The notes under the pieces: model-generated | Seen by the model: only the letters and a program-made list of their open reading frames with translations | Told to the model about the DNA's origin: nothing | Databases searched by the model: none | Shown: positions 60 to 60,148 of the stretch, piece by piece | Layout: the number at the start of each line of letters is the position of its first letter | How positions within the stretch are numbered: the first letter of the stretch is position 1 | Assembly (NCBI RefSeq): GCF_004010195.1 | Contig: NC_057756.1 | Span: forward strand, 9,000,320-9,064,319 | Direction: 5' to 3' | Origin: Chiloscyllium plagiosum | Lineage: Eukaryota | DNA: 64,000 nt | Program-made: the position numbers and the translations under genes

Positions 60-700
60 ACCTGATGTCCTCACCTGGTCTGGTCTCTATGTGATTGCAG
101 TCCTCTATTATCTCCCCAATGACTTACTTGGAATTTCAGTTTGTATCAAACCAATGAAGAGAAAAAAAAATTAAACCGAACAGACCACTGGCTATGACTC
201 TGACTCTGAATCAGGTCACAACAAAGAAACATCCAGCACAGTCTTAGGGAAAGTCCCTTCAGTCAGGATCCTGGTTTCCAGGTTGGGAGACTATGTCACA
301 GAGTCTGAATTCCCTGTGCATCTCACACTGCACTATTACCACCTCAGGTCGTAACTGATCTCACCAGCGGTGGACAGTCAGGAGGGAGAGGTGATCGGTC
401 TCCTCAACCTTGACTTTGAGCCCCATGAAGACTCTCAGCCTCGGATCAAACATGGACCTGGAAACCTCCTGCTGGTTCTCAGCTACTTCCCTCCCTTATC
501 TGATGAATCAGAATCAGTTCTCCTTCGTGCTGGACGTCATTTGTACAAAGCAGTGAGTATCACTTGGAAACAATTAGAGTGCCCACTACCAAGGGTTATT
601 TTGTAAAAACACAACTGACGGAGCTGGCTGAGCCCTGAAGGACAGAGTTACCAAACTGGGATGATGGAAGGGGTTAACGGTGCTATAACATGCACATACC
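60..700 (+). mobile_element. Degenerate CR1-group LINE endonuclease-region fragment
   Basis: Broken frames resemble the LINE APE endonuclease region (QPRIKHGPGNLLL...PPLSDESES.LL); many stops. Confidence 0.5.
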
Positions 701-727
701 CCCTGAAACATGGTCCTTTCATCTTCA

Positions 728-1005
728 GATTAGAATAGATTCCCTAGTGCAGAAACAGGCCCTTCGGCCCAACAAGTCCACACAATGACCCTCCAAAGAC
801 TAACCAACCCAGACCCATTTCCCTCTGACTAATGCACCTAACATTATGGGCAATTTACCATGGCGAATTTACCTGACCTGCACGTCTTTGGACTGTGGGA
901 GGAAACCGGAGCAAATCCACACAGACACGGGGAGAATGTCTGTGTGGAGTTTGATGCTGAGAATCGAACCTGGGACCCTGGTGCACTGAGCCAACATGCC
1001 ACCCC
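728..1005 (-). mobile_element. HE1-type tRNA-derived SINE
   Basis: Reverse complement matches the copies at 8468, 15250 and 51135 (gtccaaagacgtgcaggtcaggt core, ctaat tail). Confidence 0.85.
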
Positions 1006-1649
1006 ACGGTGTTGGTGAACTGGAGACAGGCCAAGAGCCCCTCTCAAGCAGCCTTTGTGAGACCCAGTGCACTGACCATTAAAGTGCACCCCAGGATCCT
1101 ATGGGGTGGGGGTGGGTGGGAAGGGGGGGCCCGGATGTAAGCTGCTGGAAATGATCCTGCTCAGGGTCACTCTGGAAAACTTCCATTCTACCCTTCACAG
1201 TTAATGCAATCCTGTTGGAATTTTGATTCCCAATCCTGTTCCTGAACCCTCCTGATCAGTCTGACCGGAGCCTCATTCCTCCCTGGATGTGTTTCCCTAA
1301 AGCCTGAGAGTCTCTGAACATTTCTACAGTTTGTTTCACACCCCATACTAAACAGGTTTTCTTTAGGACAAGTTCTGACACCTGGACTGAACACACCTGT
1401 ATCAGGTAAATCTGTTTCTAGACTACTGCATGTGTTTTCAGCTCTTACATTGGATCATGCTGGATAGACAGGGAGGTTTGAAATGCTGAGAGAGATTTTA
1501 TCAAAGAATGACTGTGACAGTGAGTGGTGTGGGTCACTGTTGCCTGGAACTGGTTCTTAAGCTACTTGAAATTTTTATTTCAATTCCTGAGATTCACTTT
1601 TCTGTTCTTCAGATACAGAACTCTCTTGAAAACCAAAAGATCTGATGTT

Positions 1650-1765
1650 GTAACAAAAACAAAAACAGAAGTTGCCAGAAAAACTCAGCTGGTCTGGCAA
1701 CTTCTGTGGAGAGAAACCCGAGTTAACATTTCAGGTCAAGTGACTCTTCCGCAGAATTCAAAGAA
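1650..1765 (-). mobile_element. Penelope-type short terminal repeat with degenerate hammerhead core
   Basis: Minus strand reads ctgcggaagagtcacttgacctgaaatgttaactc...ccagctgagtttttctggcaacttctgtttttgtttt. Confidence 0.55.
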
Positions 1766-3079
1766 CTCTGAACGTGCTACCACTAGTATTAGTGTTTCCG
1801 GAATTCTGTGTAGGAACCAAGTGTACAATTTTAACCAAACCCCCATGACTGGTTTAAGTCAATGGAGGAGAACACAGACCCAGGAGGGAACCAGTGTTTC
1901 ATCCAGTCCTATGCCTTACTGATCAGCAAATTATTTTAAAATGTCCACTTTATTTCAGCAGCTGTTGGGTTTAATTAAAAAGGGAGACTGCCACTTGTCA
2001 GTTACGTCTTTTGGAAAGCACACGTCAATCACATTGTGAGGCAATGTGCACGCACAAGGAGTTGAGGTGGTCTCGTTTGTTAGTGGTTATTGGTATCTAA
2101 TCTCCCAAATCCCTCCAAGAGTATAATTAACCAAGGATCTGTTTGTACTGGACCTGATTCTGAAACACGAGGTGCTGAAGTTCTCTGCTGTTAGTCTTGT
2201 TACTGCGTCCTAGTCTGTTAATGGCTTCACTTGATCCTGGACTTTCTACTACAGCAAGATATGGATTGCTAACCAAAGTGCTTGTTTCTACTTTTACTGT
2301 AATTGTGATTTTTGTGATCCTAAAACAACCGAGGTACCGAGTTTCGCAACATCCAACAGTTCACGTTTATTCTGATTACATTTTTGTAAGCGAAAACCCC
2401 ATGTGTTTGAGGTTGAACTCCTGAAAATCACAACTTTCAGTGAGACCTGATTCCCCATTGTAATCAGTGTTTTAGATTTAGAGTTAGATTGCTGCTGACA
2501 ATTTTTGCTGGAAAAAAAAGATGCACAGATTGAAATACTGAAGTGTGTGTGTAAAATACTATGTATAAACAACTGAAGTAATTTACAAAACAAAATGAAT
2601 CACTAAATATGAAAGAAATACCACATACCATGCAATTCAATACTGTTAAAACATGACTGCTGTACAGTACTTTTAAACTGAACATTCCTCATCCAGTGGC
2701 AGGTGCGAGTTGGTACTGGATCAGCCCATCTGATCTAATCCCTTGCTCAATATTAAATAGAGACCCTCATCTAATTCTTCATCAGCAATATTGAAGTTAG
2801 CTGTCGTTTTTCTGTTTGTTTAGTGTCTTGATCAACACAGCCCCTGGAACGTCCAGCTCTTGCCCATTGCCTCCTCTCCTTTATACTCTATTCTTGTCAC
2901 CCATTTTCCAGCTGCCATTGATCCCCAGGATGTTGAGTGTCATTTGATGGGTCTGTCCTCCTGAACAGCTCCTTTATACACTTGTTCAAAGTGTTGGATT
3001 CTTTAAAACAACGTGCACTCTGCTGGTTTCTCTCTCATAAGAATTATGTTCCAAGCTGATGCTCTAGCAATCGAAGCAT

Positions 3080-3825
3080 CATAGAGTCAGAGATGTACAG
3101 CACAGAAACAGACCCTTCACTCCAACCAGTCCATGCCGACCAGATATCCCAACCCAGTCTAGTCCCACCTGCCAGCACCAGGCCCACATGCCTCCAAACC
3201 CTTCCTATTCATATACCCTCTAAATGCCTTTTAAATATTGCAATTTTAATAGCCTCCACCACTTCCTCTGGCAGCTCATTCAACATACATACCACCCTTG
3301 GTGTGAAAACATTGCCCCTTAGGTCCCTTTTATAGCTTTCCCCTCTCACCCTAAACCTATGCCCTCTAGTTCTGGACTCTCCCACCCCAGGGGAGTCTGT
3401 CTACTTATCATATAGAGGTTTACAAAATTGAGGGGAATGGATAAGGTCACCTCACAGCCTCCGATGCTCCAGAGAAAACAGCCCCAACCTGTTCAGCCTC
3501 TCCCTATAGCACGAATCCTCCAACCCCAGTAATATCCTTATAAATCTTTTCTAAACCCTTTCAAATTTCACAACATCCTTCCAATAGGAAGGAGACCAGA
3601 ATTGCATGCAATATTCCAAAAGTGGCCTAACCAACGTCCTGTACAGCTGCAACATGACCTCCCAACTCCTGTACTCAATACTCTGACCAATAAAGTAAAG
3701 CATACCAAAATGCCTTCTTCACTATCCTATCTCCCTGCGACTCCACTTTCAAGGAGCTATGAACCTGCACTCCCAGGTCTCTTTGCTCAATAACACTCCC
3801 TAGGACCTTACCATTAAGTATATAA
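3080..3825 (-). mobile_element. CR1 (HER1-like) LINE 3' fragment with internal micro-inversion
   Basis: Matches the other CR1 3' ends; tail ctctatgactct; 3406-3443 is inverted. Confidence 0.9.
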
Positions 3826-5869: not shown

Positions 5870-6655
5870 CTTTTTTTTTTATATTTCAAAAATATACTTT
5901 ATTCATATATATTTAATCTATACAATTGGACATGTCATCATTCTGTAAACATTCCATTTCTTTACGTATCGAAACAGGGTAATCATTCATATTCACAGGT
6001 TAGTGCGATTACATTGAGCTCAGACGCCAGCGGAGCCCAAATGACTGCGTGGGCCCCCTGTTCTTCATNNNNNNNNNNNNNNNNNNNNNNNNNNNNNNNN
6101 NNNNNNNNNNNNNNNNNNNNNNNNNNNNNNNNNNNNNNNNNNNNNNNNNNNNNNNNNNNNNNNNNNNNNNNNNNNNNNNNNNNNNNNNNNNNNNNNNNNN
6201 NNNNNNNNNNNNNNNNNNNNNNNNNNNNNNNNNNNNNNNNNNNNNNNNNNNNNNNNNNNNNNNNNNNNNNNNNNNNNNNNNNNNNNNNNNNNNNNNNNNN
6301 NNNNNNNNNNNNNNNNNNNNNNNNNNNNNNNNNNNNNNNNNNNNNNNNNNNNNNNNNNNNNNNNNNNNNNNNNNNNNNNNNNNNNNNNNNNNNNNNNNNN
6401 NNNNNNNNNNNNNNNNNNNNNNNNNNNNNNNNNNNNNNNNNNNNNNNNNNNNNNNNNNNNNNNNNNNNNNNNNNNNNNNNNNNNNNNNNNNNNNNNNNNN
6501 NNNNNNNNNNNNNNNNNNNNNNNNNNNNNNNNNNNNNNNNNNNNNNNNNNNNNNNNNNNNNNNNNNCTTGTTGGAAAGTTCTGGCGATGAGGCATTCAGC
6601 CAAATGGCTTTGGCAGTCTGCTCAGGGAACCGCTCGACAGGATCTGCCTCAGAAG
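5870..6655 (-). mobile_element. Tx1-clade LINE 3' fragment spanning the assembly gap
   Basis: Poly-T at 5871; both gap flanks match the copy at 17657-19225 (gagcccaaatgactg; cttgttggaaag.tctggcgatgaggcatt). Confidence 0.8.
6069..6566. other. Assembly gap (498 N)
   Basis: Run of N. Confidence 1.
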
Positions 6656-17656: not shown

Positions 17657-19225
17657 TTTTTTTTAATTTCAAAAATAAACTTTATTCATAAAATTATTTG
17701 GGTCTCTTTACAATTGGTCATGCCATTTGTGTGCACACATTACATTTCTTTACATACAGACATCGAAATTTACTTTTCCTATATACAAGTTTGTACATTT
17801 ACTATCTAGCTCTTCTGAGGCATCAGCGGAGCCCAAATGACTGGGTAAGCCCCCTGTTCTTCCGAGGCCGGCAGATGTTACACGATGGTCTTTCCCCACC
17901 GCGCCTTGGCGGCAGCTGCCCTGGGTTTCAGCGCATCCCTCAACACATAGTCCTGGATGTTGGAATGTGCCAGTCTGCAACACTCAGTCGGGGCCAACTC
18001 CTTCAGCTGGAAGATCAACAGTTTTCGGACCGCCCAGAGAGCGTCCTTCACTGAGCTGATGATCCTCAAGGCACAGTTGATGTTCGTCCCAGAGAATAGA
18101 CCGTAGAGTACGGAGTCCCGCGTCATGGCGCTGCTCGAGACGAACCTCTACAAACACCACTGCATTCCTCTCCAGACTTCTTCTGCATAGGCACATTCCA
18201 GAAGGAGGTGTGTAACAGTCTCGTCCCCCCCGCAGCTGCTTCGAGGGCAGCGTGCGGTGCGGCTGAGAGTCCGGGCGTGCATAAAGGATCTCACAGGCAG
18301 AGGCCTTCTCACCACCAGCCAAGCCATGTCTTGGTGCTTGTTGGAAAGGTCTGGCGATGAGGCATTCTGCCAAATGGCTTTGACAGTCTGCTCAGCGAAC
18401 CGCTCGACAGGATCCGCCCTCTCCTTTCCCCGAAGGGTCTCAAGGACACTACGTGCTGACCACTTCCTGATGGACTTGTGGTCAAAGGTGTTTTTCTTCA
18501 TAATCTTCTCCACGAAGGACAGGTGATACGGAACGATCCAACTACTCAGAGCGTTCCACGGCAGCGAGGCCAGGCCCATCTTTTATAACACCGGGGACAG
18601 GTAGAACCTCAGTACGTAGTGACACTTGGTGTTTGCGTACCGGGGACCCATGCACAGCTTGATGCAGCCACACACAAAGGTGGCCATCATGGTGAGGGTG
18701 GCGTTGGGTATATTTCTCCCCCGTTGCCCAGATCTTTATACATCGAGACCCTTCGGACCCGTGAGCACGTCTCGTCCTGATCCATCGAGCAGATCCTGGA
18801 CCAGAAGATTATCTTGGAGGCCTCCGAGGCAAAGAGCAGGGCTTGCTGGGCCTTCACCTCCTTGAGGTCCTCTGTGACATCGACCCCCATTGTCTGCAGC
18901 AGGAGCAGGTTCTGCATACTTTCCTGGAGCTGGGACACTTTTCCCCACCTCTCTCTCGCCTCCTGAACACCTTTGGAGGATGAAGAACCTCTTGATGTTC
19001 CCTTTTACTGTTTCCCACCAGTCCGCTGGGGACTCAAAGAGGGGCTTCACAGTTCTCCAAACTGCGTAGTCCCTCTTGAGCTCCTCAATGTTTCCCAGGG
19101 TCAACAGCTTTGTGTTCAGCTTCCACGTTCCCTTACCAGCCCGCTGCTCGTCCTGTAGGTGACAGTCGGCCAGCAGGAGGCAGTGGTCAGGGAAGAACAC
19201 CGGCTTGACATCAGTGGATCTGACC
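17657..19225 (-). mobile_element. Tx1-clade LINE, 5'-truncated, RT core internally deleted
   Basis: PDHCLLL..GKGTWKLN (endonuclease end), GG...P, CPRSSCGGDETVTHLLLEC (C-terminal zinc knuckle); poly-A tail; TSD GAATCAAC at 17649-17656 and 19226-19233. Confidence 0.9.
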
Positions 19226-20074
19226 GAATCAACCTCTTCAGATATTTCATGCTACACCATGGGAGCAGGAGGAACTGAAGCCTCTCATGAGTTCAATAAC
19301 ATATGACCTATTATAATCGGATGTGGTTTCCATTTGCTTCAGTAAGCTTTTGCCTCTGTAGGATGAGAGTCCCAAGTTTTGTTTTCAAAATTATTGGTTG
19401 GTTATGAGTTCCATTTCTCCTTTAGAACTAAGCAGTTCCCTTTTCTCTGAAAGGTGCAAAGATACTAAAGCAGAAATGGACCTCAACCAACCCAATGATT
19501 TTTCAAAACCAACCAAATCAAAACGGGAACAGTGCTGGCCCATAGATATTTCATGCTTGGGAATTCAGCACAGTTCACAATTTCACTTGTACAGTTACAC
19601 ACAGTGTCATTATAGTCCCCAGTTCCCCAAATCCAGCTTAAATAAAACCAATATTCTTGTTGCTGCCTTTGCATGTCCTTACTTTTACAGTAAATGGCAT
19701 CTTTATATATTTTTTAATAAAACCTTCCACTCCTCGGTGCTATACAACCTTTGCAGTTGAACTTGATGAAGGAATCCCTGTCTTGTTGTGAGGATTTTGT
19801 TGGTTTTAAGCTGATGATATATTATGATGGTATAGCCAGCCTTGATTGAGTGTGTTTAGAATTATTTTTCCAATTCTTCGAAATTGATTTTGCCTCACAG
19901 TTGTAGCTTAATTACGCCTTACATAAAGAAGAAATGTATGAAGCAGGTAGAATGAACAGGTTACTCTCTGCCTACATTCAGAACATTATAAACACATCGA
20001 GCCAAAAAGATATACAGCTCAGAAACAGACCTTTCGGTCCAACTCAACCCTTCCTATTCATATATCCATCCAGC

Positions 20075-22810
20075 ACTGATCCTTACAGCACAATGCTGGT
20101 CACAGGCCTGCAGTCTGAAAAGCAACCCTCTACCATCATCCTCTGTCTCCTATCTTTGGGCCAATTTTGTATCCAAATGGCTAGTTCTCCCAGTAGTCCA
20201 TGTGATCTAACTTGTTACCAGTCTACCATGTGGAACCTTGCTGAACGCCTTATGATGTCCATATAGACAACGTCTAGTGCTCTGCCTTCATCAATTCTTT
20301 TCACTTCTTCAAAAAACTCAATCAATATGGGCTGGGTGCTGGCAGGTGGGACTAGATTGGGTTGGGATATCTGGTCGGCATGGACAGGTTAGACCGAAGG
20401 GTCTGTTTCCGTGCTGTACATCTCTATGACTCTATAAGTTAGTGAGATATGATTTCCCACTCACAAAGCCATGTTGACTATCCCTAATTAGTCCAAATAT
20501 ATGTAAATCCTGTCCCTCAGAATTCCCTCCAACAACTTTCCCGCTACTGATGCCTGACTCACCAGTCTATAGTTGCCTGGCTTTTCCTTACCACCTTTAG
20601 AACATAGAACATTACAGCGCAGTACAGGCCCTTCAGCCCTCGTTGTTGCGCCAACCTGTGAAACCAATCTGAAGCCCATCTAACCTTCACTATTCCATTT
20701 TCATCCATATGACTATCCAATGACCCTTTAAATGCCCTTAAAGTTGGCGAGTCTATTACTGTTGCAGGCAGTGCGTTCCACGCCCCTACTACTCTCTGAG
20801 TAAAGAAACTACCTCTGACATCTGTCCTATATCTATTACCCCTCAATACAAAACTATGCCCTCTCATGCTAGCCATCACCATCCAAGGAAAAAGGCTCTC
20901 ACTGTCCAACCTATCTAACTCTATGATTAAATATTTCTTTCTTAAATAATGGCACCACGTTAGCCAACCTCCAGTCTTCTGGCATCTCACCCGTGGCTAT
21001 TGATGATACAAATATCTCAGCAAGGGGCCCAGCAATCACTTCCCTAGCTTCCCGCAAAGTTCTAGGGTACACCTGACCTGGTCTCGGGGATTTATCCAGC
21101 TTTATGTATTTTAAGATGTCCGGCACATCCACCTCTTTTTATGGACACTTTTTAAGAAATTGCTATTTATTTCCCCAAGTTCTCTAGCTTCTATACTTTT
21201 CTTCACAGTAAGCACTGAAGCAAATTATTTGTTTATTCACTTGTTTATGCACCTCCCCATATAGGCCACATTGCTGACGTTCAAGTGGCCCTATTATCTA
21301 CCAAGTCACTCTTTATATGTACTTGTTGAAGCCCTTTGGATTCTCCTCAACCGTACTTGCCAAAGCTATGTCTTGACCTCTTTTTGCTCTCCTGATATCC
21401 CTCTTAAGTATATTCCTACTACCTTTATACTCTTTGAGGAATTCACTTGATCCCTGCTGTCTATACCTGACATATGCTCCTTCTTTTTCATGATCCTGTT
21501 GACTCTTTGCTCCTGCCTGCCTTGACTATTTGAATTGCTCATTTTCCCAACTGCACCAGCCTCAGACTAATCCCTTTTCTCACTATCTCTCTGGGCTCTC
21601 CCCTCACCCCAGCCCACCCCAGTAGTTAAAATCCTCCATCATGGATATAGCAAATCTCCCCACCTATATATTAGTCCCCTTCCAATTCAATTTCAAACCG
21701 TCCCTCTTAGACAGGTCACTTCTACCCTGGAAGAGATTCCAATGATCCAAAAATGTGTACTCTTCTGCCCTGCACCAGCTCCTCAGCCACACATTCATCT
21801 GCTCTACCCTCCTATTCCTACTCAAACCGTCCCTCTTAGACAGGTCACTTCTACCCTGGAAGTGATCCAAAAATGATCCAAAAATGTGTACTCTTCTGCC
21901 CTGCACCAGCTCCTCAGCCACACATTCATCTGCTCTACCCTCCTATTCCTACTCTCGCTAACACGTGGCACTGGGAGTAATCCAGATATTACTATCCTCC
22001 AGAATCTACCTTTTAGCCTCCTGCCTAATTTCCTATATTCTCTCCTCAGAATCTTGTCCTTTTCTCTTCCTATGTCATTGATTCCAGCCTGTACAATGCT
22101 GGTCTCGCTCTCTCCTCTTTGAGAATATTCTGCACCCTGTCCAAAACATCCTTGACCCTGGCACCGGCGAGGCAACACAACTTCAGATATCTCATAGAAA
22201 TGTCTGTCTGTGCCTCTGACTAGAGAGTCCCCTATCACAATCGATCGCTTGGAACCTGGCGTACCCCTTGTTACATTACAGCCTGTCTCGGTACCAGAAA
22301 CTTGGTTGTTTGTGCTACATTCACCTGACAGTCCATCACCCCATACATTTTCCAAAACAGCATACTTGTTTGAGATGGGGATAATCACTGGAGACTGCTG
22401 CACCACCTGCCTACCTCTCTTACCTTTCCTTGAGTTAACCCATCTGTATCTGCGATTTTTCTACCTTCCTGAAATCCCTTAGCTCCTGTAAACTACTCAT
22501 TGCCTCTAACTGCCACTCCAACTGATCCATGTGAACCAATACAATTCACAACCAAACACACTTCCTGCAAACATAACCATTAGGAACATTGAAATTCTCC
22601 CTAATCTCACACATCCAACAGGAAGACTACATTACTAAAGCCATCTTTGCATCTGAACAATATACAGACAGACCCAAAAAATGGCACAGTCTTACTGCTC
22701 TAAAAAACATGGCTCTATCTTTTGTATTTTTCAAAAAAACTTAATCTGGAGACAGATCGCGATAAAATGTAAACAAAAAAAAATAAATTGACTCTATTAT
22801 AGACTTAAAA
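20075..22810 (-). mobile_element. Degenerate long CR1 with ORF1 SGNH/GDSL esterase region, ORF2 pieces and nested CR1 3' ends (20325-20435 +, 20597-20930 -)
   Basis: ISNKYAVL...IVIGDSLVRGTDR...GINDIG...ISGLLPVPR (CR1 ORF1); DKSPRPGQVYPRTLRE and GNYRLVS (ORF2). Confidence 0.85.
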
Positions 22811-45437: not shown

Positions 45438-47654
45438 AGGATCCAGTGAGAACGGGAACAGGTAGACATTTATGTTAATGAAAAGTAGTATTGAAGAAAT
45501 CAATGGGATTAAAAGTTGACTAAACCCTAGGATCTAATAACCGTCACCCTAGAATGTTGAAAGAGATGATTACAGATATAGTGGAACCATTGGTAACCAC
45601 CTTGCATAATTCTATTAATTCTTCAATGGTGCCCACAGATTGGAAAACTCCAAATGTAATCCCAGCTCCATGTTATTTTACATTCATATTTCATTCTCAC
45701 CTTGTTTAAACCCTAATATTAATGAAAGGAGAGAGAAAACAGGGAACTACAGACCTGTTAGCCTGTCATCAGTTATAGGTAGAATACTAGAATTTATTAG
45801 AAACAATGTGATTACTAGGTGTTTAAAAATTAACTGTCTGATTGGGCAGAGTGAATCCTTCTTCTATAAAGGGGAAACCACGTTTGATAAACGTGATTGA
45901 GTTTTTTTGAGGATGTTTGTAGCAGCGTGAATAAGATGGACAGTGGACCTGATGTATTTTAATTTTCAGAAGTCTTTTGTTAAAGTGCCACACAGGAGGT
46001 TGGTGAACAACATTAAAACGGATGCCGCTGGAGATTCAAGATGGCGGCAGTCTGAAAAGTCTGCTGTGTTGGGTTGTGTGCCATACCCCGGGCAGGGTGG
46101 GCTCCTACCTCAACCCCCCACCCCCACATTAGCCACCCCTGAGGAAGATTTTTAGTATAAAGCAGGTACAGCACCTAAATTAGGATTTGGAGGCTCTGGA
46201 TATGAAACGAAGACGTCCAAAGGAAGGAGAGCTAGGGGAGTGCAGCAGGCAGAGCACTCCCCTGCTGTGTTGGGTGCACCCGCAGCTGCTGCCTCAACTC
46301 CCATGGCAGCGCCTTTAAGTTCAGTGGAGCAGCAGCATCTACTCGGGGAGTTCGCAAAACTCCATGAAAAAATCAAAAAAGCACTGGAGCCGATTACTGC
46401 CACACTGACAAAGGATAAGCAAGAGATCCGGGCGTTGGATCGGCACGTGGAAGCAGTCAAGCAAAGGACTGCGGCCTCGGAGACCCCGATGGTGAGCTCT
46501 GAGGGGCGGCTCCGAACCTTGGAAGGCCAGGTTCGGGCCTTGCTGGAACAAGTAGACGACCTCGAAAATTGAGGTCGGAGAAAAAATTTACAGGTCGCAG
46601 TTCTTCCGGAGAGTGAGGAGGGTGAGAATCTGGCTGAATTTCTTGAGAGGTGGCTCCTGGATTTGCTGGGGCTGGAGATTGTGTTGGGCTGGTTGAGTGT
46701 GGAGTGGGCCCAACGGATCGCGATACACAGGTCCGGGTCAGATTTGCACCCCACCCCGCCCAGTCCTAGTGCGACTCCAGCACTATAAAGAAAAGCAGTT
46801 AATAATAGAAACGTCCAGAAGACTGGGAAGAGATCCAAAGGGCTTTGGTATATAAAGGTTCAAGGATAATGATTTTGCAAGACTTTTCTTGGGCCATAAT
46901 TAAGAAAAGGAAGACTTTTGATGATGTAAAGAAAAAAATTAAGAGACTTGAATATTCAGTATTCTCTGAGGTACCTGACAATGCTACAGTTTAATTATGG
47001 GGGGGGGGGGTCTGTCTACAACTTTGACTTGGCAGATAAAGCAAAGAATTTTTTAACTCTCTGAAATAATAGATTTGACCGAGGGGGAAAGAGAAAAAGA
47101 TGTGTGCGGACAATGGCATAATCTTTTTTTTTATCTTCTCTTTCTTCGTTCTTTTCCCTTTTGTGGTCTCTTGCCTTATAGATGTGGTAGTGCTTTGGTG
47201 TAAAATCTGGTTTGTTTCATATTATATCTGTTTGGTAGTCATCTGTTGTTTTACTGTTCTGTTTTTCTGGGCGAAGGGTGGTTACTTCTTTGACGTAAAG
47301 ACATGTGAGGTTGTGATATGGAGGGGGAGGGGAGGGCGTCCATTGTTAACTTGCAGGAGCATAAATAACATGTCTTTTTCATTGGCTGTGTTTGGGGGTG
47401 TGGCCTTAACTGGAAGGTGCCAGGGTGGCTGTAAGGTTGGGAGTGAATGCCCCCTATGGGTGAGAGGGGAGATCGCAGGCTATAGTAGGCAGTCATGGCT
47501 AGTGATCTGTTCAGATGGTGCACCTGGAAAATAAAGGGGAGCCACTCCCCCATTAATAGGAGAAAGGTGCTTTCAAACATAGGAAAGAAAGCGTTGACAT
47601 TGCGCTGTTGCAAGAGACACATTTCACCAATAAGGAACATCTGAAGTTACAGCA

Positions 47655-48007
47655 TAGAGTCATAGAGATGTACAGCATAGAAACAGATCCCTCGGTCCAA
47701 CCCGTCCATGCCAACCAGATATCCCAACCCAATCTAGGCCCATTTGCCAGCACCTGGCCCATATGCAAGAAAACCCTTCCTATTCATATACCCATCCAGG
47801 TGCCTTTTAACTGTTTCAATTGTACCAGCCTCCAATACTTCCTCTGGCAGCTCATTACATACACGTACCACCCTCTGCATGAAATGTTTGCCCCTTAGGT
47901 CCCTTTTATATCTTTCCCCTCTCACCCTGAGCCTATGCCCTCTAGTTATGGACTCCCCCACCCCAAGGAAAAGACTTTGTCTATTTATCCTATCTGTGCC
48001 CCTCATG
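47655..48007 (-). mobile_element. CR1 3' end replacing much of the L1 endonuclease-linker region
   Basis: L1 reads QETH..HLKLQ before it and DQTGFIK directly after it. Confidence 0.85.
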
Positions 48008-48712
48008 ACCAGACAGGTTTCATCAAGAGCTGCAGCTCCTCCAACAACATCAGATGGTGTTGAATATAGTGCAGATATGTCAGCAGAGATTGATTCTGGG
48101 CTGGGTGCTCTCCCTGGATGCAGAAACGGCTTTTGTTCAGGTGGAATGGTCGTATCTCTTTGCTGTTCGAGATTGTTTTGGTCTGAGAGGGGCCTTTGCC
48201 AGATGGGTGGCAGTGTTACGTAGTGATCCCAAGGTGGCAGTTATCATGAATGGGGTCAAATCGAGCAACTTTAGTGTGGGGAGGGGCAGCCGACAGGGGT
48301 GTCCCCTGTCACCGCTGCTGTTTACTTTGGTCACTGAACTGTTGGCCAAGGCCATCCGAAAGGACCCTGAAATAGGTGGGAATTGGGGAACACAAAATTA
48401 CTCTTTATGCGGATATGTCCTTCTGTTTTTGGCTAATCCGGCAAAGTCTATACCTAGCTAAAACAAAAAGTTAACTTCATACATGCACAGAAATTAATGC
48501 TTCTGTGTAGCACAATTAAAAAGGATCAGTAAAGTATGTGATAAAATCCCTTTTGGTATATTTCTGAACATTTGGTAGTATGCGATGAGGTGCTGTGGAG
48601 CTATTTAATATTGATAGGTTACTAATGGGACTAGATTGGGTTGGGATATCCGGTCGGCATGGACGGGTTGGACCGAAGGGTCTGTTTCCATGCTGTACAT
48701 CTCTGTGACTCT

Positions 48713-48992
48713 ATCAAGCCATACTGACCTTGAGTCCTTACGCACCCATTCACCCATACATGACAGCAGTATGCCTGTTTGGTATCTCTTCAGATCTGGG
48801 AGTTCCACCCCTTCATATCCTGCGGAAGTTGCACCTTGGTAAATTTAATTAGGGGGCACCTCCTGCACCAAATAAATGATCCAAGCCCACTGACAAATCT
48901 CCACAGCACCTGTTTGGGTAATGACAACAGGAGCATCCTCATGGGATATAATAACCAAGGAAGAACATCCATTTTAATCAAGGTTATATGGC
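48713..48992 (-). mobile_element. Inverted L1 ORF2 segment
   Basis: Minus strand GHITLIKMDVLPWLLYPM...SFIW...LPQ...PDLKRYQ...WLD; its continuation ASQVRCPLINLL is on the plus strand at 49622. Confidence 0.85.
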
Positions 48993-49622
48993 CTAGCGTG
49001 ATATGAGTTCAGCTAGCTGGACGGCAGGTGTTGAAGACAACAAACACGCTGGTCTCCTGAACTTTTCCAATCGTAACTTCATATCGTCTCCAGCCAGAAC
49101 ATAAGCAAGTGGGTTAATGATGCTGTTCAAACTGGCCATGACCCTGGCCACTTGGTAACCCAGATAAATATTTTTGAATGCACTGGCCCTGGAGTTGGAA
49201 ATACCTCGAGATCAGGTTGGCGTTTCTCAGGACATGGTAAGGAGCGAAGCAAAGGGATAACAAGAAAGTGACAATCAGCATGAGCTGAAGGCAGCTATCT
49301 GGCAAGCCTTGCTCCACGTTCTTACTGTGGATCAGAACATCACAACGGGGCTGTAACAGCCAACAATGATGGGGAAAGGGAGGAAGAAAGTGATCACAGC
49401 CATGTACTCCCGCGTCTCCCTTATCGTAACACCGTCGTAGCGTTCAGTGCCATTGAGATCGGCCTTGGTTAAATTTGGATCGGCCAAGGTTTGGGCTAGA
49501 ACCAGCCCTCGGACCAGAACGCTGATGAGCAGTGAGTGGTGGCGATTCCAGCTGCCCAGCACCTTCATGGGGTGTACTGTGCCCAGGTACCGTTGCACAC
49601 TGATACAAGTGAGGAATCCAAG
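48993..49622 (-). pseudogene. P2Y purinoceptor-like (P2RY1-related) class A GPCR fragment, TM3 to C-terminus, two frameshifts
   Basis: LGFLTCISVQRYLGTVHP (TM3/DRY-like), FFLPFPIIVGCY (TM5), LCFAPYHVLRNANL (TM6 HxxR), YQVARVMASLNSIINPLAYVLAGD (TM7 NPxxY). Confidence 0.9.
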
Positions 49623-51134
49623 CCTCGCAGGTGAGATGTCCCCTCATCAACTTACTGTTGATGGATAAGATGAGATCTGTGGCTGAGCACTGTGAGAGCC
49701 CGATTGGCATAAATCAGGTGAAAACATGGAGGATAATGTGGCAGGGTGAGGGCAATTTGCTTAAGGCTTCGCTGTTTACCCCATTTGGGGGAGCCCCAGG
49801 GGTCAATGGACTCCAGCTTCAGAGCATGGAAGGGTAAGGGAATCTCCTGACTGGGAGATTTATTCGAGGGAGAGATCTTGATGTCTTTCAACCAATTAAG
49901 TCAGAAATATAGAATTCCTAATAGGGACCTTTTCCGATACTTCCAGGTTAGGGATCATAGACAGAAGAAGACTACACCCTTCGCCCAGCCATACAAGTCA
50001 GTTATAGAGAGGAATACTTTGATGTGGGAGCATCTCTTGGTTAGTACCATATATTACCTACAGAGAGGGAATGCCTTGGGGGATATGGAGAGACTCCAGG
50101 GATCTGGAATCAGGAGTTAGGGGGAAGAAATCTCATTGGAAGCATGGGAGGATATATAGGGGAAATGTAAAGGAAATTTCTATGTGCAATAAGGCATAAG
50201 CGATGCAATTCAAGATCCTTCACAGGGCCCATATGGCGCCAGAGAGGTTAGCAAAGTTTAACAGGACACCCCCCACCCAGATCTTCTCCGAAATGCCCCG
50301 AATATAAAATCAGCATAGGCACCCTCACACATTGCTTTTGGTCCTGTTACAAGATTTGCAGATACTGGGCTGCCATAGTGAATGAGCTGGAGAAGATCCT
50401 GGGGAATTGAAGTTAAGGAGGATCCGGTATCCCTTCTTTTGGGATTACCGAATCTGTCCTCTCTGGATGAGCACAGGAGAGGTTATTTAACATTCTTACA
50501 CACTGTGTGGGGAAGAACATTGCAATGAATTGGATGTTAGAAAATCCTCCAGGTCTTGTGGGGTGACGCACACTTGTGATGGTGCACCTCCCCCATGGTG
50601 CAGCATAGAACAGAAATGGCAGCATAGATACAGACCTATCGGTGGATCTGATTAGGCTTTTATATATAGCTGCGAAGGCCGTATATGGTGGTCCGAGGGC
50701 CCCGGGGGTAGGGAAGGGGGGAGACCTAGTAAACGTGGGCATAAATAACTGTTGCTCCCATGGATGGGAGCTTCAGTGCAGGTGCGATAAGTGGAGCAAT
50801 GCAATGTAGTGCAATGTAATGTAATTTAATTTTATTGGATTGTAATTTAGTTTAATACAATTTCATTTAATTTGAGTTTATTTTAATTTGGGGTGTTAAG
50901 TTAAGTAAATATGAGACGATTGTACCTTGAAGAGTAGTAGGCAGATTATTGTTAACGTTATGAAAATGTGATATTATATCTACTTTTCTGTACTTCTGTA
51001 CTTTTATAACTTTTCGGTTCTTTTTGTAAAGGAGTATATATATATATATAAATAAATGCATGACACTAGAGGTAAGATATGAGTAATGTTTGAGGATTGG
51101 TTAGTGGGCTGAAAGCAGAGAGATAGAATAAATG

Positions 51135-51450
51135 GTGGGCAGCACAGTGGCACAGTGGTTAGCACTGCTGCCTCACAGTGCCAGAGACCCGGGTTCAATT
51201 CTCGCCTCAGGCGACTGTGTGGATTTTGCACTTTCTTCTCATGTCTGCTTGGGTTTCCTCTGGGTGCTCTGGTTTCCTCCCACAGTCCAAAAATGTGCAG
51301 GTGAGGTGAATTGGCCATGCTAAATTTCCCGTAGTATTAGGTGAAGGGGTAAATGTAGGGGAATGAGTCCGGGTGTATTGCGCTTCGGTGGTCGGTGTGG
51401 ACTTGTTGGGCCGAAGGGCATGTTTCCACACTGTAAGTAATCTAATCACA
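51135..51450 (+). mobile_element. HE1-type SINE
   Basis: Similarity to the other copies. Confidence 0.9.
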
Positions 51451-52217
51451 AAAAAATGGATAATTGTCAGGCTGTGTCCGGTGGGGATTAGTAAGGATCA
51501 ATGTTTAGGCCCCTGCACATCACAATCTACATCAATGTTTTGATGTGAGAACAATTGTATTATTTCCCAAGCATGTACATGAGGCAAAACTTGATGGGAA
51601 TATGAGTTGTGAGCAAGACGTAAAGGCACAGCAGAGAGATGTAGTCGGTTTGAGTGAGTCGACAAGAGCCTGAGAGATAGAATATAGTGTTGACAAGTAT
51701 GAAGTTGTCCCCTTTGATAGGAGGGTCAGCAGTGTAGAATATTTGTAAATTGGTGAGAGATTAGAAAGTGTTGACATCTAAAGGTATGCAGGTGTTCTCG
51801 TTAGTGAGTCACTGGAAGCTAACATACTGGTGCATCAATGGATATGGGAGTACTGCAGGAAAATGGCCATGATCTCAATGAATGGAGGAGCAGTCTGGAT
51901 GGGCCAAATGGCCTACTCTTGCACCTTTTCACGTCCTTATTTCACAGCTAGAATGGATTTAATATAAAGTTAGTTTTGTGGGATTCAGTGGAAGCCCACA
52001 GGACAAGCAAGGGTTAAATTAGACTTGATTAGACCAGGGTTGAGTCCTCAGCAGTTACTTTCAGGGCAAGAACAGTGGCCTTGTATTGCTAACTGGGGAA
52101 GTGGTCATAGAGGGAATGGGGGATCTTTAAAATGATTGAAGCACTTAGGCAAACAGCAAGGGGTAACTGCAGAGATCAGTTTCAAATGCCCTTGCTATAG
52201 AAATTGACATTGCTTTG

Positions 52218-52577: not shown

Positions 52578-53085
52578 AGAGGAAGGGTCCTGGGGAAGGG
52601 TTACACCTGAAACGTCAAATTATCCACCTCCTGGTGCTGCCTGCCTTGCTGTGTTGCCCCAGCCTGCTGCCTGTCCCTCCTGATGCTGCCTGGCTTGCTG
52701 TGTTCTCCTAGGGAAGGGTCCTGGGGAAGGGTTACACCTGAAACGTCAAATTATCCACCTCCTGGTGCTGCCTGCCTTGCTGTGTTGCCCCAGCCTCCTG
52801 CCTGTCCCTCCTGATGCTGCCTGGCTTGCTGTATTTTTCCAGCCTCCTGCCTGTTCCTCCTGATGCTGCCTGGCTTGCTGTGTTCTCCTAGCCTCCTGCT
52901 TGTCCCTCCTGATGCTGCCTGGCTTGCTGCATTTTTCCAGCCTCCTGCCTGTCCAACCTGATGCTGCCTGGCTTTCTGTGATCTTCCAGCCTCCTGCCCG
53001 TCCCTCCTGGTGCTGCCTGGCTTGCTGTGTTCTTCCAGCCTCCTGCCTGGGGCTATTTCAGATCCTAGCATTTGCAGTTTTTTTT
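52578..53085 (+). repeat. Approx. 49-bp minisatellite derived from a Penelope-type tail, with an approx. 131-bp higher-order duplication
   Basis: gatgctgcctggcttgctgt...cagcctcctgcctgtccctcct repeated at 52813, 52862, 52911 and 52960. Confidence 0.9.
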
Positions 53086-58529: not shown

Positions 58530-59352
58530 CAGTCAGCATAAATTGTCCAAGGGAAATCATGCCTCATGAACTTGATTGAGTTTTTGAGGACTGATGAGGG
58601 CAGAGCAGTGGTCATGAACTATATGGACTTCAGTAAGGCTTTGAACAATGTTCCTGATGGAAGACTGGTTAGCAAGGTTAGATTACGTGGAATAAAGGGA
58701 GAACTAGCCAGTTGGTTAAAGCACTGGCTCATGGATAGAAAACAGAAGGTGGTGGTGGAGGATTTCTGTGACTGGAGACCTGTGACCAGTGGAGTGCCAC
58801 AAAGATTGGTCCCGGGTCCACTGTTTTTTGTCAGTTATATAAATGATTTGGATATGAACATGCGGTATGTGGTTAGTAAGTTTGTAGATGATACCAAAAT
58901 TGGAGGTGTAGTGGACAGTGAAGGTTACCTAAGAGTACAATGGCATCTTGATCAGATGAATCAATGGGCTGAGTGGCAGATGGAGTTTAATTTGGACAAA
59001 TGTGAGGTGCTGCGTTTTGGAAAGGCAAATCAGGGCAAGACTTGTACACTTAATGGTAAGGTCCTGGGGAGAGTTGCTGAACCAAGAGACCTTGGAGTTC
59101 ATAGTTCCTTGAAAGTAGAGTCGCAGGTTGATAGGATAGTGAAGAAAGTGTTTGGTAGCTTGCCTTTATTGATCAGTGCATATAGTATAGGAGTTGGGAG
59201 TTCATGGTGCGGCTGTTCAAGACATTGGTTAGGCCACTGTTGGGAGTACTGTGTGCAATTCTGGTATGCTGTGAAACTTGAAAGAGTTCAGAAAAGATTC
59301 ACAAGGATGTTGCCAAGGTTGGAAGATTTGAGCTGTAAGGAGAGGTTGTACA
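58530..59352 (+). mobile_element. CR1 ORF2 RT fragment
   Basis: YMDFSKA, SGVPQ, SKFVDDTKIGG, RVQKRFTRMLP. Confidence 0.9.
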
Positions 59353-60148
59353 GGATGGTACGGTGGCTCAGTGCTTAGCACTGTTGCCTCACAGCACCAG
59401 GGATCCAGGTTCAAATGACAACACCCTCAGAGCCCTCCACTATCACCTGATGAAGGAGCATCGCTCCTAAAGCTAGTGTGCTTCCAATGAAACCTGTTGG
59501 ACTATAACCTGGTGGTGTGTGATTTTTAACTTTGTACCTTGAAGACATTCTCTTCCTCTCTCTACAAGAATCTCAGTGAGTCTCTCTCTCTCTCACTCAC
59601 TCACTGCAACCCCCAGGTCATCTCCTTTGCTCCGAAGTTCTTCAACATGTACTGACCAGCTCAGCACCAGGAGTTGGGAGTTCATGTGCGGCTGTTCAAG
59701 ACATTGGTTAGGCCACTGTTGGGAGTACTGTGTGCAATTCTGGTATGCTGTGAAACTTGAAAGAGTTCAGAAAAGATTCACAAGGATGTTGCCAAGACTG
59801 GAAGATTTGAGGTGTAGGGAGAGGTTGTACAGGATGGTACGGTGGCTCAGTGCTTAGCACTGTTGCCTCACAGCACCAGGGATCCAGGTTCAAATGACAA
59901 CACCCTCAGAGCCCTCCATTATCACCTGATGAAGGAGCATCGCTCCTAAAGCTAGTGTGCTTCCAATGAAACCTGTTGGACTATAACCTGGTGGTGTGTG
60001 ATTTTTAACTTTGTACCTTGAAGACATTCTCTTCCTCTCTCTACAAGAATCTCAGTGAGTCTCTCTCTCTCTCACTCACTCACTGCAACCCCCAGGTCAT
60101 CTCCTTTGCTCCGAAGTTCTTCAACATGTACTGACCAGCTCAGCACCA
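59189..60148 (+). repeat. Near-perfect approx. 480-bp tandem duplication (CR1 piece + SINE head + family B tail)
   Basis: aggagttgggagttcatg at 59189 and 59669; both copies end tgaccagctcagcacc. Confidence 0.95.

What the first reader, a model, noticed from the sequence alone, without database searches (positions are those of the whole stretch)
48460..49640. P2Y-type GPCR fragment embedded in an inverted block of an L1 ORF2
Seen: 48993-49622 (-) encodes TM3 to C-terminus of a P2RY1-like receptor with two frameshifts and a lost TM4 Trp. It is fused directly to an inverted L1 ORF2 segment (48713-48992), whose continuation lies on the plus strand at 49622. Both junctions look like microhomologies (ATATCACGCTAGGC reads into L1 ..LGHI; AAGCC). 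If the block is re-inverted, the GPCR piece is sense to the L1 and replaces missing ORF2 sequence. Inference: a cellular mRNA was captured by template switching during L1 reverse transcription or repair, with associated inversion.
Basis: partly seen in the sequence, partly recalled or inferred. Interest (0 to 1): 0.7.

Follow-up and report, generated by a model that had tools for sequence, protein, structure and literature searches.

The report
Receptor gene fragment inside shark L1
A dead, single-copy LINE-1 retrotransposon in a shark genome carries 600 bases of a cell-surface receptor gene in a flipped middle segment, most likely picked up from the gene's RNA while the element was being copied; it is a tidy molecular fossil of a known kind of accident, not a working gene or a spreading element.

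Summary
The structure is real. Bases ~49007-49619 (-) are residues ~120-333 of a 342-aa shark P2Y1-like receptor, fused in sense to an inverted L1 ORF2 piece (aa ~802-900); ORF2 resumes on + at 49622. Public contigs bridge both receptor junctions in organism A (two studies) and organism B, and one in C. The flanks are two halves of one old CR1 copy, so this is one full-length L1 insertion. The receptor piece is frameshifted, single-copy and old; it has not spread. Best model (0.4): reverse transcriptase jumped from L1 RNA to the receptor mRNA and back; later a CR1 insertion flipped the segment. RNA capture of some kind ~0.75; a DNA-templated repair patch (~0.2) cannot be excluded because the parent has no intron here. 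L1-mRNA chimeras are known in mammals; the internal position is the unusual part.

The parts
45716..46015 (+). 5' flank: first half of an old CR1 reverse-transcriptase remnant, ending at a TT/AAAA site
   Evidence: aligns to the CR1 copy at 13761-13458; TTAAAA read at 46013-46018
46016..47652 (+). L1 5' end: 5' UTR, decayed ORF1 (coiled coil), spacer, ORF2 aa 1-53
   Evidence: tblastn with P0023; ORF1 gives only generic coiled-coil Pfam hits
47653..48006 (-). CR1 3' piece standing in place of ORF2 aa 54-~560 (~1.5 kb lost)
   Evidence: 31 of 354 positions differ from the majority of window copies
48007..48455 (+). L1 segment A: ORF2 aa ~562-716 (RT domain)
   Evidence: RVT_1 E 2e-6; human ORF2p E 2e-14
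48456..48625 (.). X: 170 bp, 32% GC, origin unknown, low copy
   Evidence: no Pfam hit in six frames, no Rfam hit, no P2Y match; A|X junction bridged in organism B (record 10)
48624..48714 (+). 5'-truncated CR1 3' end; tail overlaps the end of inverted segment B by 2 nt, 5' end overlaps X by up to 2 nt
   Evidence: 2 of 89 positions differ from the majority of window copies; loose-end positions
48713..49006 (-). L1 segment B, inverted: ORF2 aa ~802-900
   Evidence: L1-family contigs join 48713 to 49622/49623 on opposite strands (table 5)
49007..49619 (-). P2Y1-like receptor fragment, aa ~120-333 of 342; 1-bp loss at 49337, 8-bp loss near 49185, 18-bp loss in TM5, Trp->Arg in TM4, Cys->Arg in ECL2
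   Evidence: parent-like contigs (records 6, 14, 22, 28)
49622..51053 (+). L1 segment C: ORF2 aa ~903 to the end, 3' UTR, TA/A-rich tail
   Evidence: tail read
51054..51668 (+). 3' flank: second half of the same CR1 remnant (a tRNA-SINE-like repeat interrupts it at ~51135-51440)
   Evidence: 48 of 82 identical at the expected position, 0 of 100000 shuffles reach it; continuation at 51462-51668

Best explanation
Two steps. Step 1 (inferred): while a full-length L1 was integrating, its reverse transcriptase copied C and B, jumped onto the P2Y1-like mRNA nine codons before the stop, copied at least 610 nt towards the 5' end (perhaps on into X), then returned to the L1 RNA about 255 nt upstream of where it left and finished the element. 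This gave a sense chimera A-X-(lost piece)-receptor-B-C, dead on arrival because ORF2 was broken. Step 2 (inferred): later a CR1 element primed reverse transcription on the cut end of B at the B|C boundary; its short cDNA joined the end of X instead of C, and the receptor's cut end joined C, which flipped receptor+B and dropped whatever lay between X and TM3. Shown: the layout, one insertion site, real junctions at both ends of the receptor piece, decay without constraint, low copy number, presence in related organisms. It has no function today beyond being inert sequence.
For: One L1 between contiguous flanks at TT/AAAA. Receptor and B are fused in the same sense, and A ends only 85 codons before B begins. 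Receptor piece vs parent-like contigs 10-13% different; locus L1 vs other family copies 14.5-18.5% pairwise: both fit roughly 8-10% decay of the locus (my estimate), so capture is about as old as the L1. The fragment branches on the stem of Chiloscyllium+Hemiscyllium (support 88/93). The CR1 tail lies within ~5 nt, in L1 coordinates, of where C begins; with 19 CR1-tail-like hits in the window chance gives 0.2-0.6% for that site, 0.8-2.5% for any of four junctions, and its polarity is that of priming from B's end. The stub is less decayed (2 of 89; P 0.016 under 8.5%), close to the 2-2.5% per lineage separating organisms A, B and C, and the inverted junction is shared by them. Precedents: double template jumps (PMC2104539), L1-mRNA chimeras (PMC13174262), retrotransposon-bridged inversions (10.1101/2024.08.27.596794).
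Against: No intron loss and no poly(A), so RNA is not proven. X is unidentified. No listed contig bridges the CR1 stub with 31 nt on both sides (32 of 199,647 pieces shown), so the stub's presence in B and C is unknown. The age gap rests on 89 bp: the same 89 bp of the neighbouring CR1 differs at 5 of 89, not clearly more than 2 of 89. The chance figure was computed after seeing the layout. The L1-family contigs listed are the longest ones and may be the more divergent. The tree node is not starred.
Confidence: 0.4

Rival explanations
1. Repair of a break in an already inserted L1 with reverse-transcribed patches: B was cut out and religated backwards, its two 3' ends first extended on a CR1 RNA (then X) and on the P2Y mRNA. 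One event, no sense intermediate.
For: Both foreign pieces point their 3' sides at B, as priming from B's two ends predicts. Explains B|C contiguity and the loss of aa 717-801 without a lost piece. Endonuclease-independent insertions with bits of cellular RNA are described (PMC1920257, passages).
Against: Needs the stub to be as old as the receptor piece; it differs at 2 of 89 against 10-13% for the receptor piece.
Confidence: 0.2
2. DNA-templated patch: replication-based template switching or polymerase-theta-type repair copied 610 bp of the P2Y gene's DNA and 170 bp of another locus into the L1 while inverting B. No RNA involved.
For: Parent DNA is colinear with the fragment over 49007-49397 and 49447-49619, there is no tail, junction overlaps are 0-3 nt, and ORF2p-associated insertions templated from genomic DNA are described (PMC11702581; 10.1101/2024.08.27.596794).
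Against: The parent is not in this 64-kb window (one hit only), while the templated insertions in the cited tumour set were mostly under 250 bp and within 15 bp of the site. A distant DNA donor would seldom be pure coding sequence, and would be sense only half the time (inference). Leaves the CR1 stub as a coincidence.
Confidence: 0.2
3. One integration event of the twin-priming type: first cDNA stops at B|C; a second primer copies B, switches to the P2Y mRNA and then anneals to the first cDNA; A-X was added on the primer side from another cDNA; the CR1 stub came later by chance.
For: inv(B)-inv(receptor)-C with a ~5-nt loss at B|C is the layout of twin priming with a switch of the second cDNA (10.1101/2024.08.27.596794 section 4; GREM example in PMC11702581).
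Against: In those cases the inverted piece abuts the 5' flank; here 2.4 kb of forward L1 with an intact 5' end lies between. The stub must land on the junction by chance.
Confidence: 0.15
4. Assembly artefact.
For: The window has a 498-N gap and a 98%-identical 479-bp tandem pair; the junctions around the CR1 stub were not bridged by any listed contig.
Against: Both receptor junctions are bridged in runs X1, X3 and X10, one in X18; A|X is bridged in X10; the outer flanks match up as one site.
Confidence: 0.03

Closest known systems
L1/mRNA chimeric insertions in human (Law and Burns 2026, PMC13174262; abstract, passages and section 13 read)
   Same: Host mRNA piece fused to an L1 within one insertion, in sense to the adjoining L1 piece.
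   Different: Their 17 cases sit at the L1 5' end, mostly start at the transcript start and often end at splice donors. Here the piece is internal, comes from the 3' two-thirds of the coding sequence, ends in mid-codon context, and is inverted with part of ORF2.
Tripartite LINE chimeras by double template jump (Gogvadze et al. 2007, PMC2104539; abstract and section 8 read)
   Same: More than one template change in one LINE integration.
   Different: Their order is RNA-RNA-LINE; the enzyme does not return to the LINE RNA. Here L1 sequence lies on both sides.
LTR-mediated internal retrocopies (Tan et al. 2016, PMC5131818; abstract read)
   Same: mRNA piece flanked on both sides by discontinuous parts of one retrotransposon.
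   Different: Those are LTR elements and often transcribed or in frame; this is a non-LTR L1 and is decayed.
Twin priming with 5' switching, and retrotransposon-bridged inversions (10.1101/2024.08.27.596794; section 4 part 1 and passages read; PMC11702581 passages read)
   Same: Inverted L1 piece ending where the forward piece starts; second template joined to the inverted piece; an element bridging one junction of an inversion.
   Different: Somatic human events with 5'-deleted L1; here germline, full-length 5' end, 0.9-kb inversion, bridge is CR1.
Orectolobiform P2Y1-like receptor, 342 aa (XP_072413115.1 and cluster)
   Same: 70-81% identical per segment to the C. punctatum protein, against 42-59% to the 353-aa paralogues tested.
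   Different: Lacks TM1-TM2 and the last 9 residues; two frameshifts; 14 of 77 invariant columns changed or lost.

Membership tests
L1-clade LINE | ORF2 with APE endonuclease, RT and C-terminal Cys/His region, colinear with L1 ORF2p | tested here: met
   Window pieces tile P0023 aa 1-53, 562-716, 806-899, 900-1226; P0023 matches human ORF2p end to end, E 2e-189
L1-clade LINE | L1-type ORF1 | tested here: inconclusive
   Only coiled-coil Pfam hits; the resemblance of the downstream motif to L1 ORF1 is recalled, from no call
L1-clade LINE | TT/AAAA target site and A-rich tail | tested here: met
   Flanks rejoin at TTAAAA; TA/A-rich tail at 51035-51056
L1-clade LINE | Target-site duplication | tested here: inconclusive
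   At most 3-4 A-rich bases, not separable from the tail; no longer repeat at the ends
P2Y1-like class A GPCR gene | Homology to P2Y1-like receptors | tested here: met
P2Y1-like class A GPCR gene | Intact seven-helix reading frame | tested here: not met
   TM1-2 absent, two frameshifts, TM4 Trp and ECL2 Cys lost
Processed pseudogene | Loss of introns relative to the parent | tested here: inconclusive
   Parent-like contigs are colinear over 49007-49397 and 49447-49619, so no intron to lose there; 49398-49446 not seen
Processed pseudogene | Own poly(A) tail and 3' UTR | tested here: not met
   Ends 9 codons before the stop; no A/T run of 5 or more at either junction
Classical twin-primed (5'-inverted) L1 | Inverted piece next to the 5' flank, 5' end deleted | tested here: not met
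   2.4 kb of forward L1 lies between
Classical twin-primed (5'-inverted) L1 | Small deletion or duplication at the inversion point | tested here: met
   B ends at aa 900, C starts at aa 902/903, about 5 nt lost
5' mRNA/L1 chimera (Law and Burns) | Partner at the L1 5' end, from the transcript start or ending at a splice donor | tested here: not met
   Internal, aa 120-333
5' mRNA/L1 chimera (Law and Burns) | Partner arrived together with the L1 | tested here: inconclusive
   Similar decay and shared by organisms A, B, C; no genome with the empty site or the intact L1 was available
LTR-mediated internal retrocopy | Flanking element is an LTR retrotransposon | tested here: not met
   It is an L1
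Propagating chimeric element (gene-carrying TE family) | Several copies carrying the same insert | tested here: not met
   Depth over the receptor piece 7.7-20.9 in X1 against 260-3223 over L1 parts; locus contig depth no higher than about the parent-like contig's (5.6 vs 8.9, 20.5 vs 28.4, 7.0 vs 6.4); contig depth is a coarse measure

The most novel reading that the evidence does not exclude
A vertebrate L1 reverse transcriptase left its own RNA for a host mRNA and came back to finish a full-length insertion, an internal gene-capture route so far described mainly for LTR elements; X is the 5' part of the same receptor transcript; and a LINE of another clade (CR1) later inverted the captured block by priming at one breakpoint. 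If such sandwiches recur in slowly evolving shark genomes they would form a countable class.
Probability: 0.3. Interest if true: 0.5.

Novelty: new variant of a known kind. Interest (0 to 1): 0.3.

Why it matters
It is a germline, non-mammalian example of an L1 carrying host coding sequence in its middle, preserved across at least two (probably three) related organisms. If the best model holds it shows out-and-back template jumping by L1 and a small inversion bridged by CR1. It matters little functionally: the receptor piece was already frameshifted before organisms A, B and C separated, ORF2 is destroyed, and the chimera did not multiply. It could serve as a presence/absence marker for the bamboo-shark lineage.

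Tried and rejected
No own genome was held, so the parent locus, other L1 copies and the source of X could not be read directly. Two separate L1 insertions: rejected, the outer flanks are one CR1 copy. Classical twin priming: rejected as the whole story (forward 5' part intact). A hairpin or inverted AAGCC repeat as inversion trigger: I first noted an apparent palindrome at B|C, then dropped it because L1-family contigs start at 49622 and organisms B and C read AAGGCC. A 6-nt match of the CR1 tail to L1 at B|C: dropped, family alignments stop at 48713, leaving 2 nt. X as a CR1/L2 RT remnant: alignment scores 22-27, not above shuffles (95% = 32). X as RNA gene or protein: nothing. Fused receptor-ORF2 protein: 0 of 1678 longer candidates passed (weak evidence). 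X3 has no cover over 48469-48602; not used. Absolute dating with the epaulette-shark rate of 7e-10 per generation (PMC10587355, passages) was not done, since no generation time was in the passages seen. PMC7677710 (passages) had nothing on P2Y. One search was translated in the wrong frame and is not used. Earlier scan findings: nothing relevant.

Full report
What is there. The window is repeat-rich shark-type DNA with no host exon that I could recognise among 123 stop-to-stop frames of 85 aa or more (read by eye). On the minus strand 49622 to ~49008 aligns to residues 120-333 of a 342-aa Chiloscyllium P2Y1-like receptor, the only hit in the window. Seven of 289 candidates passed at E 1e-5, six shark and one frog P2Y1-like proteins. 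Per segment the fragment is 70-81% identical to that protein and 42-59% to the two 353-aa paralogues tested. It has a 1-bp loss at 49337, an 8-bp loss near 49185 (inferred from the gap counts of parent-like contigs and the alignment), an 18-bp loss in TM5, Trp->Arg in TM4 and Cys->Arg in ECL2; 14 of 77 columns invariant in seven intact proteins are changed or lost.

The L1. With an intact ORF2 (P0023, one of 114 hits among 391 candidates; E 2e-189 to human ORF2p) the pieces map as aa 1-53 (47495-47652, +), a CR1 piece in place of aa 54-~560, aa ~562-716 (A, +), then X and a CR1 3' end, aa ~802-900 inverted (B), the receptor piece, and aa ~903 onward (C, +). About 255 nt of ORF2 between A and B are missing. 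The DNA left of 46015 and right of 51054 are consecutive halves of one old CR1 RT remnant: 48 of 82 bases match at the expected position, reached by 0 of 100000 shuffles and by 3 of 127836 window positions, all CR1 RT (the site itself, the reference and one more copy); the joined flanks align across the join, with no gap at it, to another copy. So everything between is a single full-length L1 at a TT/AAAA site.

Are the junctions real? Twenty of 24 listed runs hold part of the stretch, seven hold half or more of its words. I laid 4 of the 24, all contigs; the tables show 32 of 199,647 pieces, 40 of 482 letter differences and 15 of 168 joints. Organism A: a 716-bp contig (48939-49654, 1 difference, run X1, possibly the assembly's own sample) and, from another study (X3), 48709-49579 (2 differences) and 49579-49832 (0). 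Organism B (X10): 48940-49690 with 31 differences and one gap, and 48228-48594 with 12, which bridges A|X. Organism C (X18): 48966-49457 with 25 differences. No listed piece bridges the CR1 stub on both sides. The B and C contigs have one gap each, so the frameshifts and the 18-bp loss are older than the split of A, B and C. Parent-like contigs cover 49007/49011-49397 and 49447-49619 at 10-13% difference. Depth over the receptor piece and X is tens at most against hundreds to thousands over the L1 parts, and the locus contig is no deeper than about the parent-like one, which fits one copy; the tool warns that contig depth is not a copy number.

Junction detail. The receptor piece stops at ~49007-49011; the bases down to 48993 are L1's I-S-W-L-G codons with one base lost. 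At the other end the parent-like contig stops at 49619 and L1-family contigs start at 49622; B and C carry an extra G after 49621. So neither stated microhomology holds; overlaps are 0-3 nt as far as can be seen. L1-family contigs join 48713 to 49622/3 on opposite strands (4 contigs in X1, 5 in X18), confirming that B's end and C's start are neighbours in the intact family, with about 5 nt lost.

Age. On a protein tree of nine rows the fragment is sister to the three Chiloscyllium/Hemiscyllium proteins, apart from Rhincodon and Stegostoma (88/93, not starred); at 13 diagnostic sites it sides 6 times with the former, 5 with the latter, 2 with neither. I take the host to be of that lineage (inference); the coded organisms were not identified. 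The locus differs by 4.1% between A and B and 5.1% between A and C, by 10-13% from the parent, and its L1 parts by 14.5-18.5% from seven listed family contigs. I read this as roughly 8-10% decay for both L1 and receptor piece. The CR1 stub differs at 2 of 89 positions from the majority of 17 other window hits, fewer than any of them (lowest 3 of 89), so it looks younger, but 89 bp is little.

Mechanism. An RNA donor is favoured (about 0.75 over all RNA models, my judgement) because the donor is pure coding sequence from outside the window and is fused in sense to B; it is not proven, since the parent has no intron where it could be read and there is no tail. Among RNA models, out-and-back template jumping followed by a CR1-bridged inversion explains most: A ending just before B starts, equal decay of L1 and receptor piece, the stub lying at the B|C break (0.2-0.6% by chance for that site, computed after the fact from 19 tail-like hits), its polarity, and its lower decay. 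The CR1 at 47653 shows that large losses accompany CR1 pieces in this same element. The model needs a lost piece between X and TM3 and predicts the stub in B and C; neither was seen. Rivals are listed with their odds.

What is known. Human L1-mRNA chimeras: 17 cases, at the 5' end (PMC13174262; abstract, passages, section 13). Double jumps: PMC2104539 (abstract, section 8) and PMC4476161 (passages). Twin priming with switching, templated insertions and bridged inversions: 10.1101/2024.08.27.596794 (passages and section 4 part 1 of 2; its supplementary note on pseudogene structures was not seen and may hold closer cases) and PMC11702581 (passages). Endonuclease-independent capture: PMC1920257 (passages). 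Internal retrocopies in LTR elements: PMC5131818 (abstract). Cartilaginous fishes have many retrocopies, 14,081 in one survey (10.64898/2026.06.26.734816, passages). Searches (listings) showed no paper on this locus or on a host coding piece inside a shark L1; the library lacks most subscription journals. That P2Y coding regions are usually single-exon is recalled.

Verdict. Real, old, dead, single-copy. A new variant of a known kind: the ingredients are all described, the internal position in a full-length L1 and the possible CR1-bridged flip are the unusual parts. Interest 0.3.

Noticed in passing
proteins P0005-P0021: The two P2Y1-like paralogues (342 and 353 aa, contigs of equal length in each species) are 102-106 of 108 identical within each of five orectolobiform species over TM2-ECL2, against 93-99 of 108 between orthologues of the two family groups and 50-63 of the next 120 residues: ongoing gene conversion of that block. 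P0015 looks like a hybrid of the two paralogues.
   Followed up: partly
window 47653-48006: A CR1 3' piece stands exactly where ~1.5 kb of L1 ORF2 (aa 54-~560) is missing: insertion-linked deletion or recombination between two CR1 copies.
   Followed up: partly
window 48456-48625: X may have a second low-copy homologue: at 48521 a second contig appears in run X1 and two in X18, and depth rises over 48536-48602 in X10. Contig overlaps or alleles could give the same picture.
   Followed up: partly
P0006: The Rhincodon orthologue on record is 311 aa and ends just after TM7, about 30 residues short of its relatives.
   Followed up: no
window ~17900-19250 (-): Frames that look like endonuclease and C-terminal zinc-finger pieces of a Tx1-type LINE (resemblance recalled, not tested).
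   Followed up: no
window 59189-60148, 52581-52832, 21693-21954: Two-copy tandem repeats of 479, 131 and 131 bp at 96-99% identity: recent duplications or assembly artefacts.
   Followed up: no
window 6069-6566: Assembly gap of 498 N.
   Followed up: no
window 45716-51668: Nested history: an old CR1 RT remnant holds the L1 and, 80 bp further, a SINE-like repeat; the L1 in turn holds two CR1 ends.
   Followed up: yes
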